Assembly (NCBI GenBank): GCA_045536565.1
Contig: JAZSNU010000011.1
Span: 49,335 to 113,334, forward strand
Direction: 5' to 3'
Source: Clostridia bacterium
GTDB taxonomy: Bacteria > Bacillota > Clostridia > TANB77 > CAG-465
DNA: 64,000 bases
Shown here: positions 4,250 to 32,074 of the stretch, one piece after another
Numbering within the stretch: the first letter of the stretch is position 1
How the letters are laid out: each line of letters opens with the position of its first letter
Notes under the pieces: generated by a model
The model's database searches: none
What the model was told of the DNA's origin: nothing
The model's input: only the letters and a program-made list of their open reading frames with translations
Position numbers and translations under genes: made by a program

Positions 4250-4825
4250 ATGATAGTACTTGGGATAGATCCTGGTTTTGCAAGATTAGGTTATGGTATT
4301 ATTGATTATTCAAATAATAAATATAAAGTGATAGAATATGGAACAATATCTACCAAAGCAGGTGAACCATTAGAAGAAAGACTAAGAAAAATAAACCAAG
4401 ATTTAAATGAGATTATATCAAAGTATAAAATAGAGGCAGCATCTATTGAAGAACTGTTTTTCAATACTAATACAAAAACTGCTATACATGTTGCAGAAGC
4501 AAGGGGAGTAATTTTGTATACAATAGCAGCAGCAAATATACCAATTAATGAGTATACACCTCTTCAAGTAAAACAAGCATTAGTAGGATATGGTAGGGCA
4601 GATAAAAAACAAGTTATGGATATGGTAAAAAGGACATTAAAATTAGAACAAATGCCAAAGTTAGATGATACAACAGATGCATTAGCACTTGCCATATGTT
4701 ACATATATAGTTATAAATATGAAAGGTTTGATAAAAAAGGCGGAGGTAATAAATTAGAACTTTTAATAAAAGAATATGAAAATAAAGAAAAAAACAGGAT
4801 AAAAAAGAATTGTAAAGGTAAGTAA
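4250..4825 (+). CDS. ruvC: Holliday junction resolvase RuvC with a short Lys-rich C-terminal extension
   Basis: The N-terminus MIVLGIDPGFARLGYGII is the classic RuvC catalytic-Asp motif. RBS GAGGAAAAAG sits upstream. It is 191 aa against the usual ~165. Confidence 0.85.
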   Translation: MIVLGIDPGFARLGYGIIDYSNNKYKVIEYGTISTKAGEPLEERLRKINQDLNEIISKYKIEAASIEELFFNTNTKTAIHVAEARGVILYTIAAANIPINEYTPLQVKQALVGYGRADKKQVMDMVKRTLKLEQMPKLDDTTDALALAICYIYSYKYERFDKKGGGNKLELLIKEYENKEKNRIKKNCKGK

Positions 4826-4888
4826 CAGCAAGTCTAAAATAACATATAATACACTAAATAGATTAAAATTCTAGGAGGTGTATTTTTT

Positions 4889-14536: not shown

Positions 14537-14610
14537 TGGCAGGGGTAGAGAGATTCGAACTCCCATGAACGGTTTTGGAGACCGGCATGCTACCATTGCA
14601 TCATACCCCT
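14537..14610 (-). tRNA. trnW: tRNA-Trp (anticodon CCA)
   Basis: The reverse complement reads AGGGGTATGATGCAATGGTAGCATGCCGGTCTCCAAAACCG...GGGAGTTCGAATCTCTCTACCCCTGCCA. It has a cloverleaf with a T-loop GTTCGAATC, anticodon loop CTCCAAA and an encoded 3' CCA. Confidence 0.8.
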
Positions 14611-28174: not shown

Positions 28175-28891
28175 TTATTTAATTTGTTTTTTATTAAAAC
28201 AAAGATACCAATCCATACAATCATATTCCTTCATATGTTCTGCTTTTTCTAACATTTCAGCTTGATTTTTTGGAGCAGGTGATATTGTAGGCATTCCAGG
28301 AATCCAATTGGCTGGTGTTGCTACCTTATTCACATCAGATTCTTGAAGTGCTTCAACCATTCTTAGTATTTCACCAATGTTTCTACCAAGGGATGCAGGG
28401 TATTGTAAAATTGCTCTGATTTTACCTTCTGGACAAATTATATATACACTTCTTACAGTTGATTCGTTGTTATTGTTCATCATGCCATATAATTTAGCAA
28501 TTTTTGAATGTTTATCGTCTATTATTGGGAAAGGTACTTTTATACCGGTATTTTTGTAAATGTCATATACCCAAGAAAGATGTGAAGTCATATTATCAAC
28601 TGAAAGTCCAAGTAATTCACAATTTCTTTTTTTAAATTCTGGATAATATTTACTAAATGATATAAATTCGGTTGTGCATACAGGTGTGAAGTCTCCTGGA
28701 TGACAAAAAAATACAAGCCATTTCCCTTTATAATCACTTAACTTACATTCACCAAATGTTGTATTTGCACTAAAATCTGGTGCTTTATTTTCGATCATTA
28801 AGCATTTTGAGTTACATTCGTTATATGTATAATTTTTATTATCTAGCATATTTGAGCAATATCTTGCGTTTTCATCGTTAATATAATCCAT
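28175..28891 (-). CDS. Peroxiredoxin (Prx/AhpC-TSA family) with a Cys-rich N-terminal extension
   Basis: I set the start at the ATG at 28891, preceded by GGAGG. FTPVCTTE is the peroxidatic Cys motif. The N-terminal 30 aa carry 3 extra Cys (CSNMLD...YNECNSKC). Confidence 0.8.
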   Translation of the reverse strand: MDYINDENARYCSNMLDNKNYTYNECNSKCLMIENKAPDFSANTTFGECKLSDYKGKWLVFFCHPGDFTPVCTTEFISFSKYYPEFKKRNCELLGLSVDNMTSHLSWVYDIYKNTGIKVPFPIIDDKHSKIAKLYGMMNNNNESTVRSVYIICPEGKIRAILQYPASLGRNIGEILRMVEALQESDVNKVATPANWIPGMPTISPAPKNQAEMLEKAEHMKEYDCMDWYLCFNKKQIK

Positions 28892-29161
28892 ATATTTACC
28901 TCCTAATATATGGTATACATTGGACAAAAAACATGTTACAAAAAAATAAAATATGGGAAAAAATTTGGCAACCAAATACATATTGATTGTTAGATGTATT
29001 TAAGAGTCAAAATGGTGAAAATTGTTTAATATGTTGTGAAAATACATAAAACTATTCTGAATAATAAATTATAATTTTAAAATAACATTTTTAATTGTTA
29101 CAAACAATATAAAAAAATATTTCCTCTTTTTAATATACAATAATTTCAGGGAGAGGATAGT

Positions 29162-29788
29162 ATGGTAGAAAAAATTAGTAATAGTATTCTTAACATATTA
29201 TCTGATAAAGATGATTCAGAGGAACAAAAAGAAATATTACTTTTTGGAATAACTAGGATAGTAGAAGATATACCTAAGTATATAGGTATGATTATAATTT
29301 GCTTGTTATTAGGAGTAATAAAAGAATTTGCCATTGTTATGGGTGTAACTATAATATATAAAACTTTTACTGGTGGGGTACACTTACATACAAATATTGG
29401 GTGCTTTATAGGGTCTCTTCTATCAGTTCTGTGTTGTATTTACTTACCAATTTTATTAATAGAATTTACCAATTTGATAATACCGTTTTATGTATTTGTA
29501 TATATCTTCTCGATATATGTAATATTGGTTTATGTACCAGCGGATGTTCCTGAAATTCCTATAATAAATAAGGGAAGAAGAAAAAGGGATAAGATTATGT
29601 CTTTTATTATACTAAACTTATTATACATATTATGTTTGTTTGTTATAAAAAATCCAGTATATGTAGGTATAGTTTTGGTAACGATTTTAAATATAGACAT
29701 AATGACAACTAGAACAATATATAAATTATTTAAAAATGAATATGGGTATGAAACATATGTCCCAGATGAGCTATTAATGACAGAGTAA
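29162..29788 (+). CDS. agrB: AgrB-family AIP processing/export membrane peptidase
   Basis: Multi-TM 208-aa protein with the conserved FTGGVH (GGxH) and C-x-x-x-S region of AgrB. RBS GGGAGAGG is upstream. Confidence 0.75.
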   Translation: MVEKISNSILNILSDKDDSEEQKEILLFGITRIVEDIPKYIGMIIICLLLGVIKEFAIVMGVTIIYKTFTGGVHLHTNIGCFIGSLLSVLCCIYLPILLIEFTNLIIPFYVFVYIFSIYVILVYVPADVPEIPIINKGRRKRDKIMSFIILNLLYILCLFVIKNPVYVGIVLVTILNIDIMTTRTIYKLFKNEYGYETYVPDELLMTE

Positions 29789-29855
29789 TTTTACTAACCA
29801 TGGGGTAAGATTATCTGTTTTTAATATATATAAATGATTTTTAGGAGGTATTTTA

Positions 29856-29970
29856 TATGAAATCATTATTAAGAAAAATAGCAAAAACATATGCTAAATC
29901 AACAACTAATACTTGCTTAGCATGGATGTTCCACGCAAACAAAGCTCCAAGAACTTTAATAAAAAAATAA
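29856..29970 (+). pseudogene. agrD: AgrD-like autoinducing-peptide precursor, reading frame apparently broken in an A6 run
   Basis: The ATG at 29856 follows AGGAGG. As written it reads MKSLLRKNSKNIC-stop. The +1 frame starting at 29872 continues ...IAKTYAKSTTNTCLAWMFHANKAPRTLIKK-stop. One fewer A in agaaaaaat at 29871-79 restores a canonical 37-aa AgrD: an amphipathic leader, the Cys-containing core TCLAWMF, and a charged P-x-x-L tail. Confidence 0.55.
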
Positions 29971-29991
29971 CAAGAATATATATTTAAAATA

Positions 29992-30029
29992 TTAGCAAGC
30001 CTCTAAATTACACAAAGAGGCTTGCTTAA
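29992..30029. terminator. Bidirectional terminator between agrD and agrC
   Basis: ttagcaagcctct...agaggcttgcttaa 13-14-bp inverted repeat. Confidence 0.6.
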
Positions 30030-30031
30030 TG

Positions 30032-31378
30032 TTATTTATCGAATGTTAATGTTTGTGTAAAGAACTTGGTATCATAGTCAACATTTGGAACAATATCACC
30101 TTTGTTGTTTTTCTTGAAGAATTTAAGAACTTCATATAGCCCAAAACCAGAAGGGTTTTCTTTTGTAGAATAGTCTTTTTCAAACATTTTAATTACATCT
30201 ATTTTACTAGGATTTTTAACAGAATTACCTATTATGATAACATCTTGTTTTCTATTTTCATCATAATACATTTCTAATTTTAGTTTTCTATCTTTGGATT
30301 CTAATGCTGCTTCAATTGCATTATCAAGCAATATACCAATTATTCTTGATAACTCGAAACTTGGAAAATTAATTTTTGCTACATCGCATGCTATATCAAG
30401 AGAAAGTGTTAGATTATTATCTCTTGCATAAAGCATTTTACTAACTACTACACCATATATAGCAGGGTCGTTAATTACCTTTGGTGATAATATTGATAGT
30501 AGGTTAATATCATTAAAACCATGTAATAGATTTTTACAATATGATTTTACACCATCAATATTTCCAACAGCTAGGTAACCGTTTATCGATTGAACCATAT
30601 TACCCATATCATGCTTAAAACCACGAATATTTTCATTTATTGTTGCTAATGCTTTATTATGGAGTTTTGTATTTTCTAATTCCAGTTCTGTATCTTTAAA
30701 AAGAGTCCTTTTTTCCATATACCAAAAAGAAAAAATAGAAACAACTAATAATTGAATTGTATTTATAATTACAAAAGTAGCAGGATAATTATAATCATTT
30801 GAAAACATGAAGAACATTGTAGGCATTAATGTTAAAATAATTATAAGTCCTTCATATAATATAAATTTATAGTTGATTTTTCTTGTTTTAACAAAAATTT
30901 TATTTAACTTATACCTAATTGCTTTATCTATGCAAAGAATAAAGATTCCATAAATTAGGCTAGTTATAATGCTAATAGTATAATATATAAATTTATTATT
31001 AATAATACTATCCATAGAATCAACAAATACTGATAATATTATAACTGTTATCATATCAAATATAAATGGTATAAAAACACCAATTACAGAGATTATTATG
31101 GATTTAATTATATTTGCATGAAATACAAAATGTGCTATAAGACAAGAGGTTATAATTATTATAGTAGGTTTTATAAAAGATACATCTATCAAATATGTAT
31201 GTAGAAATGTTGCAAACAATGCAATTGGAAGCATATATAAAAAACTTACAAACAGTTTTTTATAACGGTAAACTTCTTTACATATAATGTTTGCTAATAC
31301 ATAAATAGTATAAACTTGTGTAAATGATACTATAATTGTAGATATGATATACAATAAAATTTCTAATAATTTTTCCAT
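30032..31378 (-). CDS. agrC: AgrC-like (HPK10 subfamily) membrane sensor histidine kinase
   Basis: 6-7 N-terminal TM helices, an H-box RGFKHDMGN, and C-terminal GHKL N/G boxes (LLDNAIEA, GFGLYEV). Confidence 0.75.
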   Translation of the reverse strand: MEKLLEILLYIISTIIVSFTQVYTIYVLANIICKEVYRYKKLFVSFLYMLPIALFATFLHTYLIDVSFIKPTIIIITSCLIAHFVFHANIIKSIIISVIGVFIPFIFDMITVIILSVFVDSMDSIINNKFIYYTISIITSLIYGIFILCIDKAIRYKLNKIFVKTRKINYKFILYEGLIIILTLMPTMFFMFSNDYNYPATFVIINTIQLLVVSIFSFWYMEKRTLFKDTELELENTKLHNKALATINENIRGFKHDMGNMVQSINGYLAVGNIDGVKSYCKNLLHGFNDINLLSILSPKVINDPAIYGVVVSKMLYARDNNLTLSLDIACDVAKINFPSFELSRIIGILLDNAIEAALESKDRKLKLEMYYDENRKQDVIIIGNSVKNPSKIDVIKMFEKDYSTKENPSGFGLYEVLKFFKKNNKGDIVPNVDYDTKFFTQTLTFDK

Positions 31379-31399: not shown

Positions 31400-32074
31400 T
31401 TAAGTTATATTTCCCATTGGACAAGAGATAGATTCGGTGAAAAACACTTTACTATCTAGTTTGTTAACTTCTGTTATTGCTTCGGTATTAATAATATATG
31501 ATCTATGATTTCTAATAAAAATATCATTAGGTAGTGTTTTATAAATATTATTAAGTGACATAGAGGATTCATAAACACAGTTCCTAGCATGTATATAGGT
31601 TTTATTAAATTTTCTTTCAATAAAGAAAATATCATTTGCCCTAATAGATAGACCTCTTTTTATGTTTATAAATACTTTGTTTTCAGAAGATGAAAATTCT
31701 TCTTTAAACCTATTAAATATAGCTGTAAGTGCAGAAGTTGAAATAGGTTTAAGTAAATAATCAAAAGTTTTACATTTGAAAGATAATAATGAATATTCGT
31801 AATGTGCAGTAAGAAATACTAAATAGAAATTCTTGTTTATTTTTCTTAAATCTGTTGCAAATTCAACACCATTTTTACCACCATTTTGAAAATCCACATC
31901 TAAAAATAATATATCTATATTGTTATTTTTAATTTCATCATAAATTATATTTTGGTTATCCGTTACAGTTGTAATTTCAGCATCTATATCTAGTTCAATT
32001 ATTATTGATTCCATAAGTTTTGCAATGTTTTCGATACTCTTTAAGTTATCATCACATAAAGCAATTTTTAACAT
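31400..32074 (-). CDS. agrA: AgrA-like LytTR-family response regulator
   Basis: N-terminal receiver (MLKIALCDDN...FLDVDF) and a C-terminal LytTR DNA-binding domain. The gene is immediately upstream of agrC on the same strand. Confidence 0.75.
   Translation of the reverse strand: MLKIALCDDNLKSIENIAKLMESIIIELDIDAEITTVTDNQNIIYDEIKNNNIDILFLDVDFQNGGKNGVEFATDLRKINKNFYLVFLTAHYEYSLLSFKCKTFDYLLKPISTSALTAIFNRFKEEFSSSENKVFINIKRGLSIRANDIFFIERKFNKTYIHARNCVYESSMSLNNIYKTLPNDIFIRNHRSYIINTEAITEVNKLDSKVFFTESISCPMGNIT

What the first reader, a model, noticed from the sequence alone, without database searches (positions are those of the whole stretch)
29856..29970. agrD-like precursor gene interrupted by a single-base length change in an A-homopolymer
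As written, the ATG at 29856 (AGGAGG 8 nt upstream) gives MKSLLRKNSKNIC-stop. The +1 frame from 29872 reads IAKTYAKSTTNTCLAWMFHANKAPRTLIKK-stop. Removing one A from the A6 run at 29873-29878 fuses these into a textbook 37-aa AgrD (MKSLLRKIAKTYAKSTTNTCLAWMFHANKAPRTLIKK). That peptide has an amphipathic N-terminus, a Cys-containing core that would form a thiolactone, and a basic C-terminal tail with P-x-x-L. This is a genuine frameshift (an inactive or slippage-modulated quorum-sensing signal) or a homopolymer sequencing error.
Basis: seen in the sequence. Interest (0 to 1): 0.6.

Follow-up and report, generated by a model that had tools for sequence, protein, structure and literature searches.

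The report
Intact agrD gene; frameshift was miscounted
The reported frameshift is a counting error: the gene is intact and encodes a small quorum-sensing signal-peptide precursor in an otherwise ordinary agr-type cell-to-cell signalling locus of an uncultured gut Clostridia bacterium.

Summary
The frameshift is not in the sequence. The ATG is at 29857, not 29856. The homopolymer is A5 (29874-29878; 29873 is G), not A6. The same AGA-AAA-ATA codons occur in six other independent assemblies, and the ORF is intact in all 22 related agrB loci examined.

The AgrD interpretation holds on context and architecture. The ORF lies 68 nt downstream of agrB, which matches Pfam AgrB and keeps the K/G/H/C catalytic spacing. 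It faces a convergent LytTR regulator plus AgrC-like kinase operon. No Pfam or NCBIfam AgrD profile recognises the peptide.

Among 29 gapless relatives, the five residues after Cys/Ser20 are hypervariable, while H26 and P31 are invariant. A 93%-identical agrB relative carries a different core (CYGWFF). Its kinase is about 35% identical in the sensor half and about 91% in the catalytic half, as in agr specificity groups.

The spacing matches Clostridium acetobutylicum-type AgrDs, so I predict a six-residue ring, CLAWMF. A conserved direct repeat about 146 nt upstream of agrB is a candidate regulator site.

Verdict: an ordinary, intact agr locus and a new member of a known kind.

The parts
29015..29041 (+). 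Direct repeat GTGAAA-N15-GTGAAA with a 21-bp period. It is a candidate binding site for the LytTR response regulator, which would make the agrBD promoter autoinducible.
   Evidence: It is the only match to TGAAA-N14-18-GTGAAA in the 64-kb window (0.8 expected by chance, so not significant alone). The same repeat, with a 20-22 bp period, lies 145-149 nt upstream of the agrB start in 14 related loci whose intergenic sequence is otherwise diverged. Binding is inferred, not shown.
29162..29788 (+). agrB: the membrane peptidase/cyclase that would process AgrD.
   Evidence: Pfam PF04647 AgrB, E 1.1e-30, 106.8 bits against a cut-off of 23. K67, G72, H74 and C81 are invariant in 17 homologues. They have the same spacing as S. 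aureus AgrB R70/G75/H77/C84, the residues required for activity (PMC10196373). Several hydrophobic segments are present.
29843..29848 (+). Ribosome-binding site AGGAGG, 8 nt before the agrD ATG.
   Evidence: Read directly from the sequence. Related loci have AGGAGG or AGGGGG at the same position.
29857..29970 (+). agrD-type autoinducing-peptide precursor gene: intact, 37 codons plus TAA.
   Evidence: Searches show the open frame. The exact peptide is in the protein collection from an NCBI contig of 121,731 bp, and three other members of its cluster are also 37 aa. Twenty-nine relatives align without gaps.
29874..29878 (+).
   Evidence: The run is identical in L024, L001, L002, L003, L004 and L005.
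29914..29931 (+). Codons 20-25 (C-L-A-W-M-F): the predicted (thio)lactone ring region and hypervariable core.
   Evidence: Mean column entropy is 2.43 bits at positions 21-25, against 1.00 in the leader and 0.85 in the follower. There are 28 distinct cores among 29 sequences, and position 20 is Cys in 22 and Ser in 7. The six-residue ring is inferred from the gapless hhalign register with C. acetobutylicum-type AgrDs.
29932..29967 (+). Codons 26-37 (HANKAPRTLIKK): the basic C-terminal follower that AgrB would remove. H26 and P31 are invariant.
   Evidence: The follower has four K/R and no D/E.
29988..30033 (.). Strong hairpin between the convergent agrD and kinase genes, probably a bidirectional terminator. 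Its G+C-rich core is 29994-30004 paired with 30016-30026.
   Evidence: Minimum free energy -21.1 kcal/mol, z -5.35, and 0 of 200 shuffles fold as well. The terminator scan missed it because the loop is 11 nt.
30032..31378 (-). AgrC-like sensor histidine kinase. The membrane sensor half is residues 1-225 (30704-31378). The H-box KHD is at residue 255, followed by a GHKL ATPase domain.
   Evidence: Pfam HATPase_c_5, E 1.3e-10. The best NCBIfam hit is staphylococcal AgrC, E 1.6e-29, below the equivalog cut-off. About 6-7 hydrophobic segments lie in residues 1-220. The sensor half is hypervariable compared with L024.
31400..32074 (-). AgrA-like response regulator (receiver plus LytTR DNA-binding domain), first gene of the regulator-kinase operon.
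   Evidence: Pfam LytTR E 1.3e-16 and Response_reg E 2.1e-10. NCBIfam AgrA scores E 3.9e-13, below the equivalog cut-off.

Best explanation
The gene at 29857..29970 is an intact agrD-type gene with no frameshift. It belongs to a complete agr-type peptide quorum-sensing locus: agrB-agrD on the + strand, converging on a LytTR regulator plus AgrC-like kinase operon on the - strand. Proposed mechanism (inferred): the 37-aa precursor is held at the membrane by its basic amphipathic leader. AgrB (Cys81/His74) cleaves off the basic follower HANKAPRTLIKK and closes a thiolactone between Cys20 and the new C-terminus. The spacing to the invariant His26 and Pro31 suggests this C-terminus is Phe25, giving a six-residue ring C-L-A-W-M-F. 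An unidentified peptidase then removes the conserved leader (...YAKSTTNT). The released cyclic peptide is sensed by the polytopic sensor domain of the convergent kinase. The kinase phosphorylates the LytTR regulator, which probably binds the conserved 21-bp-period GTGAAA direct repeat upstream of agrB and closes a positive feedback loop. Shown here: the intact frame, the gene identities, the conservation pattern and the signal/receptor co-divergence. Inferred: ring size, tail length, regulator binding and the regulated phenotype.
For: The frame is intact and the run is A5, with the same codons in six other assemblies. AgrB, the GHKL kinase and the LytTR regulator are identified by Pfam above its cut-offs. 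The AgrB catalytic K/G/H/C spacing is invariant. A 36-37 aa ORF follows agrB in all 22 related agrB loci (21 from the genome scan plus L024), using ATG, GTG or TTG starts. It is also present on two short metagenome contigs, L001 and L002. The 29-sequence alignment is gapless, with a hypervariable hydrophobic core after Cys/Ser20 and invariant H26 and P31. Between the window and L024, DNA identity is about 90% across the locus but falls to 40-55% over the kinase sensor half. At the protein level the sensor half is 35% identical and the catalytic half 91%, while the AgrD core changes from CLAWMF to CYGWFF. L006 and L007 have identical cores and keep 76% sensor identity. Among 16 close pairs, core identity correlates with the sensor/kinase identity ratio (Spearman 0.69, p 0.003; the pairs are not independent). 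hhalign against six C. acetobutylicum-type AgrDs gives 74% probability and E 2.7e-5, gapless, pairing C20=C34, H26=Y40, P31=P45 and L34=L48. Those AgrDs are predicted to form six-membered rings, and the synthetic C. acetobutylicum peptide R6T0 was used as the added AIP in that study (PMC10301443). The upstream direct repeat is conserved in position. The leader is amphipathic: hydrophobic moment 1.48 against 0.73 +/- 0.36 for shuffles, reached by 2.9% of shuffles.
Against: Neither the peptide nor any of its 28 relatives matches Pfam AgrD at E <= 10. The window peptide has no NCBIfam hit at E <= 1. The follower is basic, whereas the acidic residues just after the cleavage site are essential in S. 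aureus (PMC10196373). The kinase and regulator score far below the staphylococcal AgrC/AgrA equivalog cut-offs. Across all 136 locus pairs, core identity does not correlate with the sensor/kinase ratio (rho -0.03). Only close pairs show the trend. The direct repeat alone is not significant within the window, and the more distant loci L015-L023 lack it in the agrB upstream region. No peptide, read-level or expression data exist, and the organism is known only from metagenome assemblies.
Confidence: 0.88

Rival explanations
1. One reading: agrD is interrupted by a one-base length change in an A homopolymer. This would be a pseudogene, a slippage-modulated switch or a sequencing error.
For: None in the sequence.
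Against: The window has A5 and an open frame. Six other independent assemblies carry identical AGA AAA ATA codons, and all 22 related agrB loci have intact ORFs. A five-base run is short for efficient slippage (general knowledge).
Confidence: 0.02
2. The gene is an intact AgrD, but the mature signal has the canonical five-residue ring (C-L-A-W-M, cleaved after Met24) rather than six residues.
For: Five-membered rings are described as far more common than six-membered ones (PMC10301443). The reported C. perfringens ring is CLWFT (PMC6534674). Trp at ring position 3 and hydrophobic residues at positions 4 and 5 are frequent in the family.
Against: There is one more residue between Cys and the invariant His/Pro than in the C. 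perfringens-type arrangement as I recall it (CLWFT-HQPEEP; my own knowledge, not checked here). The profile alignment with the six-ring C. acetobutylicum group is gapless. Position 25 is always hydrophobic (F/L/W/I/V), like a ring residue, and the invariance begins at position 26.
Confidence: 0.3
3. The small ORF is not the AgrB substrate. It would be an unrelated small basic membrane peptide or toxin that happens to follow agrB, and the kinase senses something else.
For: No AgrD profile matches it, and its follower lacks the acidic residues needed in S. aureus.
Against: Its position and orientation after agrB are invariant in all 22 related agrB loci. Cys/Ser sits at a fixed position before a hypervariable hydrophobic core, and the conserved Pro lies in the AgrD register. 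The core co-diverges with the kinase sensor domain. No other candidate ORF lies between agrB and the kinase gene.
Confidence: 0.05

Closest known systems
Clostridium acetobutylicum-type agr system (separate agrBD and agrCA operons; AgrD ...GKCVLVTLYEPKMPEELL; synthetic AIP R6T0 with a six-membered ring and no tail) - PMC10301443
   Same: agrBD is separate from the kinase/regulator operon. The register is the same: Cys, five residues, an aromatic or His residue, x-P-K-x-P-x-x-L (hhalign gapless). The host is a spore-forming member of the Clostridia.
   Different: The precursor is much shorter (37 aa against 53-59). The follower is basic (HANKAPRTLIKK) rather than acidic (YEPKMPEELLKENIDK). The two operons converge and the order is regulator then kinase. 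No LanM-like CA_C0082 homologue is adjacent to the agr genes; the flanking genes are a peroxiredoxin gene and yabP-family/yqfD genes. Some relatives use Ser instead of Cys.
Staphylococcus aureus agrBDCA with its four specificity groups
   Same: It has AgrB with the same catalytic spacing, an amphipathic leader, a Cys-initiated hydrophobic core, a conserved Pro in the follower, an HPK10-type polytopic kinase and a LytTR regulator. The AIP core and the receptor sensor domain are hypervariable between close relatives while the rest of the locus is conserved. A candidate direct repeat of 21-bp period lies upstream of agrB (AgrA boxes: my own knowledge).
   Different: It is not a single agrBDCA operon. 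No RNAIII-type effector was found (Rfam gives only a tRNA in the window). The follower is basic, whereas D33/E34 are essential in S. aureus. A six-residue rather than five-residue ring is predicted. The kinase and regulator fall below the AgrC/AgrA equivalog cut-offs.
Clostridium perfringens / Clostridioides difficile AgrD (ring CLWFT followed by HQP..P)
   Same: A His immediately follows the predicted ring. More distant family members have the follower HQPKAPR, close to the HQPEEPKSL motif that I recall for C. perfringens (my own knowledge). A conserved Pro in the charged C-terminal region is reported in PMC6534674.
   Different: There is one extra residue between Cys and His, and the precursor is shorter. 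In this locus the cognate kinase and regulator are encoded next to agrBD.
Lactone (Ser-cyclised) AIPs, described as rare cases in PMC8251862
   Same: Seven of the 29 aligned family members, plus L013, have Ser at the cyclisation position in an otherwise conserved context. This suggests lactone variants.
   Different: The window peptide itself has Cys. Here Cys and Ser alternate between close relatives within one family.

Membership tests
AgrD (Pfam PF05931 / NCBIfam cyclic lactone autoinducer peptide) | Significant match to the curated AgrD sequence profile | tested here: not met
   The window peptide has no Pfam or NCBIfam hit at E <= 1. None of the 29 family members hits Pfam AgrD at E <= 10.
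AgrD (functional class: AgrB-processed autoinducing-peptide precursor) | Small ORF immediately downstream of, and co-oriented with, agrB | tested here: met
   There is a 68-nt gap after agrB and an RBS 8 nt upstream. The same arrangement is found in all 22 related agrB loci.
AgrD (functional class) | N-terminal amphipathic leader | tested here: met
   The helical hydrophobic moment of residues 1-15 is 1.48, against 0.73 +/- 0.36 for shuffles; 2.9% of shuffles reach it. The support is modest.
AgrD (functional class) | Conserved Cys (rarely Ser) opening a short, hydrophobic, hypervariable core | tested here: met
   Position 20 is Cys in 22 and Ser in 7. Positions 21-25 have entropy 2.43 bits against about 0.9 in the flanks, and are almost entirely F/L/W/V/M/I.
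AgrD (functional class) | Charged C-terminal follower with a conserved proline at a fixed distance from the ring | tested here: met
   P31 is invariant, at Cys+11. This is the same register as the C. acetobutylicum-type AgrDs. A conserved Pro is a stated AgrD feature (PMC6534674).
AgrD (S. aureus paradigm) | Acidic residues directly after the cleavage site (D33/E34, essential for AgrB cleavage) | tested here: not met
   The follower is HANKAPRTLIKK, with four K/R and no D/E. The requirement is described in PMC10196373.
AgrD (functional class) | Processed to a secreted cyclic (thio)lactone or lactam peptide | not testable with these tools
   This needs LC-MS of culture or heterologous agrBD supernatant.
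AgrB (PF04647) | Profile match above the gathering score, and catalytic His/Cys with the R/K and G positions | tested here: met
   The score is 106.8 bits against 23. K67/G72/H74/C81 are invariant with the spacing of S. aureus R70/G75/H77/C84. The correspondence is judged by spacing, not by a direct alignment with S. aureus AgrB.
AgrC-type (HPK10) sensor kinase | Polytopic N-terminal sensor, H-box, and GHKL domain of the HATPase_c_5 type | tested here: met
   About 6-7 hydrophobic segments lie in residues 1-220. KHD is at residue 255 and conserved in 17 loci. PF14501 scores 41.6 bits against 22.
Staphylococcal AgrC / AgrA equivalogs (NF046015, NF046049) | Score above the NCBIfam equivalog cut-off | tested here: not met
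   The scores are 103 bits against 500, and 49.5 against 400. These are relatives, not orthologues in the strict sense.
AgrA-type LytTR response regulator | Receiver plus LytTR domains | tested here: met
   PF00072 scores 41.2 bits and PF04397 scores 61 bits, both above their cut-offs.
Canonical agr locus | Single agrBDCA operon with a divergent RNAIII effector | tested here: not met
   agrBD converges on a regulator-kinase operon, and this arrangement is conserved in relatives. There is no Rfam hit other than a tRNA.
agr specificity groups (pherotypes) | Co-divergence of the AIP core and receptor sensor domain within an otherwise conserved locus | tested here: met
   Window versus L024: AgrB is 93% identical, the kinase catalytic half 91%, the sensor half 35%, and the core changes from CLAWMF to CYGWFF. 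L006 and L007 have identical cores and 76% sensor identity. Cross-inhibition is not testable here.

The most novel reading that the evidence does not exclude
These peptides form a compact (36-37 aa) AgrD subfamily of uncultured gut Clostridia that current profiles do not detect. Its members would have an all-basic follower and a six-residue ring. Thiolactone (Cys) and lactone (Ser) forms would interchange between close relatives. Discrete pherotypes would co-evolve with the sensor half of a convergently encoded kinase, so commensal gut lineages would run staphylococcus-like signal interference.
Probability: 0.4. Interest if true: 0.4.

Novelty: new member of a known kind. Interest (0 to 1): 0.2.

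Why it matters
As flagged, the finding does not matter: there is no frameshift, pseudogene or phase switch. The remainder is a complete agr-type quorum-sensing locus in an uncultured, low-G+C, spore-forming gut Clostridia lineage. Its modest value has two sources. First, standard AgrD models do not recognise the signal gene, so profile-based annotation may fail to name it. Second, the family gives a clean natural example of signal/receptor co-diversification and Cys/Ser exchange outside the staphylococci. It also yields directly synthesisable predictions, cyclo-CLAWMF against cyclo-CYGWFF.

Tried and rejected
- **Exact-sequence contig look-ups for the window's AgrD and AgrB:** nothing on record. 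The window's own contig could not be retrieved, so read-level or strain-level data for this genome were not available.
- **Pfam and NCBIfam on the peptide, and Pfam on all 29 relatives:** no AgrD hit.
- **PDB sequence search with the AgrB profile:** no solved relative.
- **Full-text search for the family's motifs (YAKSTTN, HQPKAPR and others):** no paper found.
- **Terminator scan:** it found nothing because the hairpin loop is 11 nt. Direct folding found the hairpin.
- **The repeat finder on the agrB upstream region:** it missed the 6-7 nt direct repeat. Alignment of orthologous upstream regions and a pattern search found it.
- **Correlation of core identity with sensor divergence over all 136 locus pairs:** null (rho -0.03). 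Only the 16 closely related pairs carry signal.
- **Promoter assignment:** the sigma-70 scan gives no more sites than shuffles (36 against 33 +/- 5), so no promoter is asserted. Possible -10 elements near 29060-29075 and at 29139-29144 remain guesses.
- **Phase variation at the A5 run or at the terminal A7 run (29961-29967):** considered and rejected, because there is no length variation among assemblies.

Full report
**1. The observation**

The window around the finding reads TTTAGGAGGTATTTTATATGAAATCATTATTAAGAAAAATAGCAAAAACA... starting at 29840.
- The ATG occupies 29857-29859; positions 29856-29858 read TAT.
- The only A-runs in this part of the gene are A5 at 29874-29878 and A5 at 29883-29887. 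Position 29873 is G.
- The mechanical ORF list contains 29857..29970 as a single 37-codon ORF.
- Its translation is MKSLLRKIAKTYAKSTTNTCLAWMFHANKAPRTLIKK*.

The AGGAGG box "8 nt upstream" fits the ATG at 29857. The frameshift is not in the sequence.

**2. Comparison with related strains**

- The exact peptide is in the large protein collection, from an NCBI contig of 121,731 bp. The three other members of its cluster are all 37 aa.
- DNA was retrieved from two short metagenome contigs (L001, L002), from a Logan assembly whose AgrB is 93% identical (L024), and from species-representative MAGs (L003-L005). All of these show the identical codons AGA AAA ATA and an open frame.
- A genome-collection scan with an AgrB alignment returned 21 loci. 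All are metagenome-derived genomes or scaffolds labelled Clostridia or Clostridium.
- With L024, that makes 22 related agrB loci. Every one carries an intact 36-37 aa ORF after agrB. Most start with ATG. In L022 and L020 the position of the expected Met reads Val and Leu, so I infer GTG and TTG starts.
- An exhaustive phmmer search added eight more relatives, all 37 aa.

**3. What the locus is**

- The upstream ORF 29162..29788 is AgrB: Pfam PF04647, 106.8 bits against a cut-off of 23.
- In 17 homologues K67, G72, H74 and C81 are invariant. Their spacing equals that of R70, G75, H77 and C84 of S. aureus AgrB, the residues required for peptidase activity (PMC10196373).
- Converging on agrD from the other strand is an operon of two genes.
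  - One is a receiver-LytTR response regulator (31400..32074).
  - The other is a 448-aa kinase (30032..31378) with about 6-7 hydrophobic segments in residues 1-220, an H-box (KHD at 255) and a HATPase_c_5 GHKL domain. Its best NCBIfam hit is staphylococcal AgrC, below the equivalog cut-off.
- Between the convergent genes lies a hairpin of -21.1 kcal/mol with z -5.35.
- The flanks are housekeeping and sporulation genes: VanW-like, peroxiredoxin, YabP family, YqfD and YbeY (from L024).
- The window has 26.7% G+C.
- The convergent arrangement is conserved in the relatives.

**4. Is the small ORF really an AgrD?**

By profile it is not recognised. The window peptide has no Pfam or NCBIfam hit, and none of the 29 family members hits Pfam AgrD even at E <= 10.

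By architecture and context it is.
- The 29 sequences align without a single internal gap.
- M1, A13, H26 and P31 are invariant.
- Position 20 is Cys in 22 sequences and Ser in 7.
- The five following positions are almost purely F/L/W/V/M/I and are hypervariable. Their entropy is 2.43 bits, against 1.00 in the leader and 0.85 in the follower, and there are 28 distinct cores among 29 sequences.
- The leader is amphipathic, with modest support (2.9% of shuffles reach the observed moment).
- The stated AgrD features are an amphipathic leader, a ring-forming core and a conserved Pro in a charged tail (PMC10196373, PMC6534674). All are present.
- The main departure is charge. The follower HANKAPRTLIKK has four basic and no acidic residues. 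In S. aureus the two acidic residues after the cleavage site are essential.

**5. Evidence that the signal is in use**

- The window and L024 are about 90% identical in DNA across the whole locus.
- Identity falls to 40-55% over 30750-31350, which encodes the membrane sensor half of the kinase.
- At the protein level the sensor half is 35% identical and the catalytic half 91%.
- The AgrD core changes from CLAWMF to CYGWFF, and two residues after His26 also change, while the leader and the distal follower stay almost the same.
- This is the pattern of agr specificity groups.
- As a control, L006 and L007 have identical cores and retain 76% sensor identity.
- Among the 16 closest locus pairs, core identity correlates with the sensor/kinase identity ratio (Spearman 0.69, p 0.003; the pairs are not independent).
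- Over all 136 pairs the correlation vanishes (rho -0.03), as expected once divergence saturates.

**6. Ring size (inferred)**

- The family has Cys, then five residues, then invariant His, with Pro at Cys+11 and Leu at Cys+14.
- I compared it by profile with six C. acetobutylicum-type AgrDs copied from supplementary Figure S1 of PMC10301443.
- The alignment is gapless: C20=C34, H26=Y40, P31=P45 and L34=L48, with probability 74% and E 2.7e-5.
- Those AgrDs are predicted to give six-membered rings. The synthetic peptide R6T0 is the C. acetobutylicum AgrD peptide added as AIP in that study's assays.
- The Ruminiclostridium cellulolyticum signal was synthesised from Cys coupled to WFWSY, which is also six residues (PMC8251862).
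- I therefore predict the ring C-L-A-W-M-F, with roughly 0.6 confidence against 0.3 for the canonical five-residue C-L-A-W-M.
- Tail length cannot be predicted. If there is no tail, rearrangement to a homodetic lactam is possible (PMC8251862).

**7. Regulation (inferred)**

- Upstream regions of agrB are poorly conserved overall.
- They share a direct repeat (G/A)TGAAA-N-GTGAAA with a 20-22 bp period, always 145-149 nt before the agrB start.
- It occurs in the window (29015-29041, period 21) and in 14 related loci.
- It occurs only once in the 64-kb window. On its own that is not significant, since 0.8 matches are expected.
- Its fixed position across diverged loci is a phylogenetic footprint.
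- Direct repeats at about 21 bp are what LytTR regulators such as AgrA bind (my own knowledge).
- The more distant loci L015-L023 lack this motif upstream of agrB.
- No promoter is asserted, because the sigma-70 scan is no better than shuffles.

**8. Comparison with the known, and verdict**

- The locus works like an agr system. It is closest in register and operon split to the C. acetobutylicum type.
- It differs in several ways: a much shorter precursor, a basic follower, a convergent regulator-kinase operon, no adjacent LanM-like gene, and Cys/Ser alternation among relatives.
- agr systems and many predicted AIPs of gut bacteria are already described (PMC11953309). I found no paper containing this family's motifs.
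- The flagged anomaly is a reading error.
- The underlying feature is an ordinary, intact agr locus: a new member of a known kind, with mild points of interest.

Noticed in passing
L003 2190-2303; L008 4675-4785; L009 4679-4789; L010 4619-4729; L011 4679-4789; L013 about 4680-4790; L014 4684-4794; L015 1250-1363: In these related loci the cyclisation position carries Ser instead of Cys (for example TTNTSLMWWLH and TTTSSMLWFFH) in an otherwise conserved AgrD context. This suggests lactone rather than thiolactone signals, interchanging with Cys forms among relatives.
   Followed up: partly
window 30704-31378 (- strand), compared with L024 2090-3430: The sensor half of the AgrC-like kinase is only about 35% identical between two genomes whose flanking genes are about 90% identical. 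This is a sharp island of divergence matching the changed AgrD core.
   Followed up: yes
window 29015-29041: A GTGAAA direct repeat with a 21-bp period sits at a fixed distance (145-149 nt) upstream of agrB in 15 loci, leaving an unexplained leader of about 85-100 nt before agrB if the promoter is adjacent to it. A second conserved -10-like element, TATACAAT at 29137-29144, lies just before the agrB RBS.
   Followed up: partly
window 29961-29967: An A7 run (ATA AAA AAA TAA) forms the last codons of agrD. A length change here would alter only the last residues.
   Followed up: partly
window 28175-28981 (- strand): The mechanical ORF for the 1-Cys peroxiredoxin is 268 aa, but the orthologue called in L024 is 239 aa. 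The real start is probably an internal Met about 29 codons in (MDYINDEN...), so the agrB upstream intergenic region is about 90 nt longer than the ORF list implies.
   Followed up: no
L020 about 4755-4868; L022 about 2680-2795: In these two loci the position of the expected initiator Met reads Leu (L020) and Val (L022). I infer TTG and GTG start codons from the translated frames, not from the DNA. An ATG-only gene caller would truncate or miss these ORFs.
   Followed up: partly
window 14540-14610 (- strand): This single tRNA gene is the only Rfam family match in the 64-kb window.
   Followed up: no
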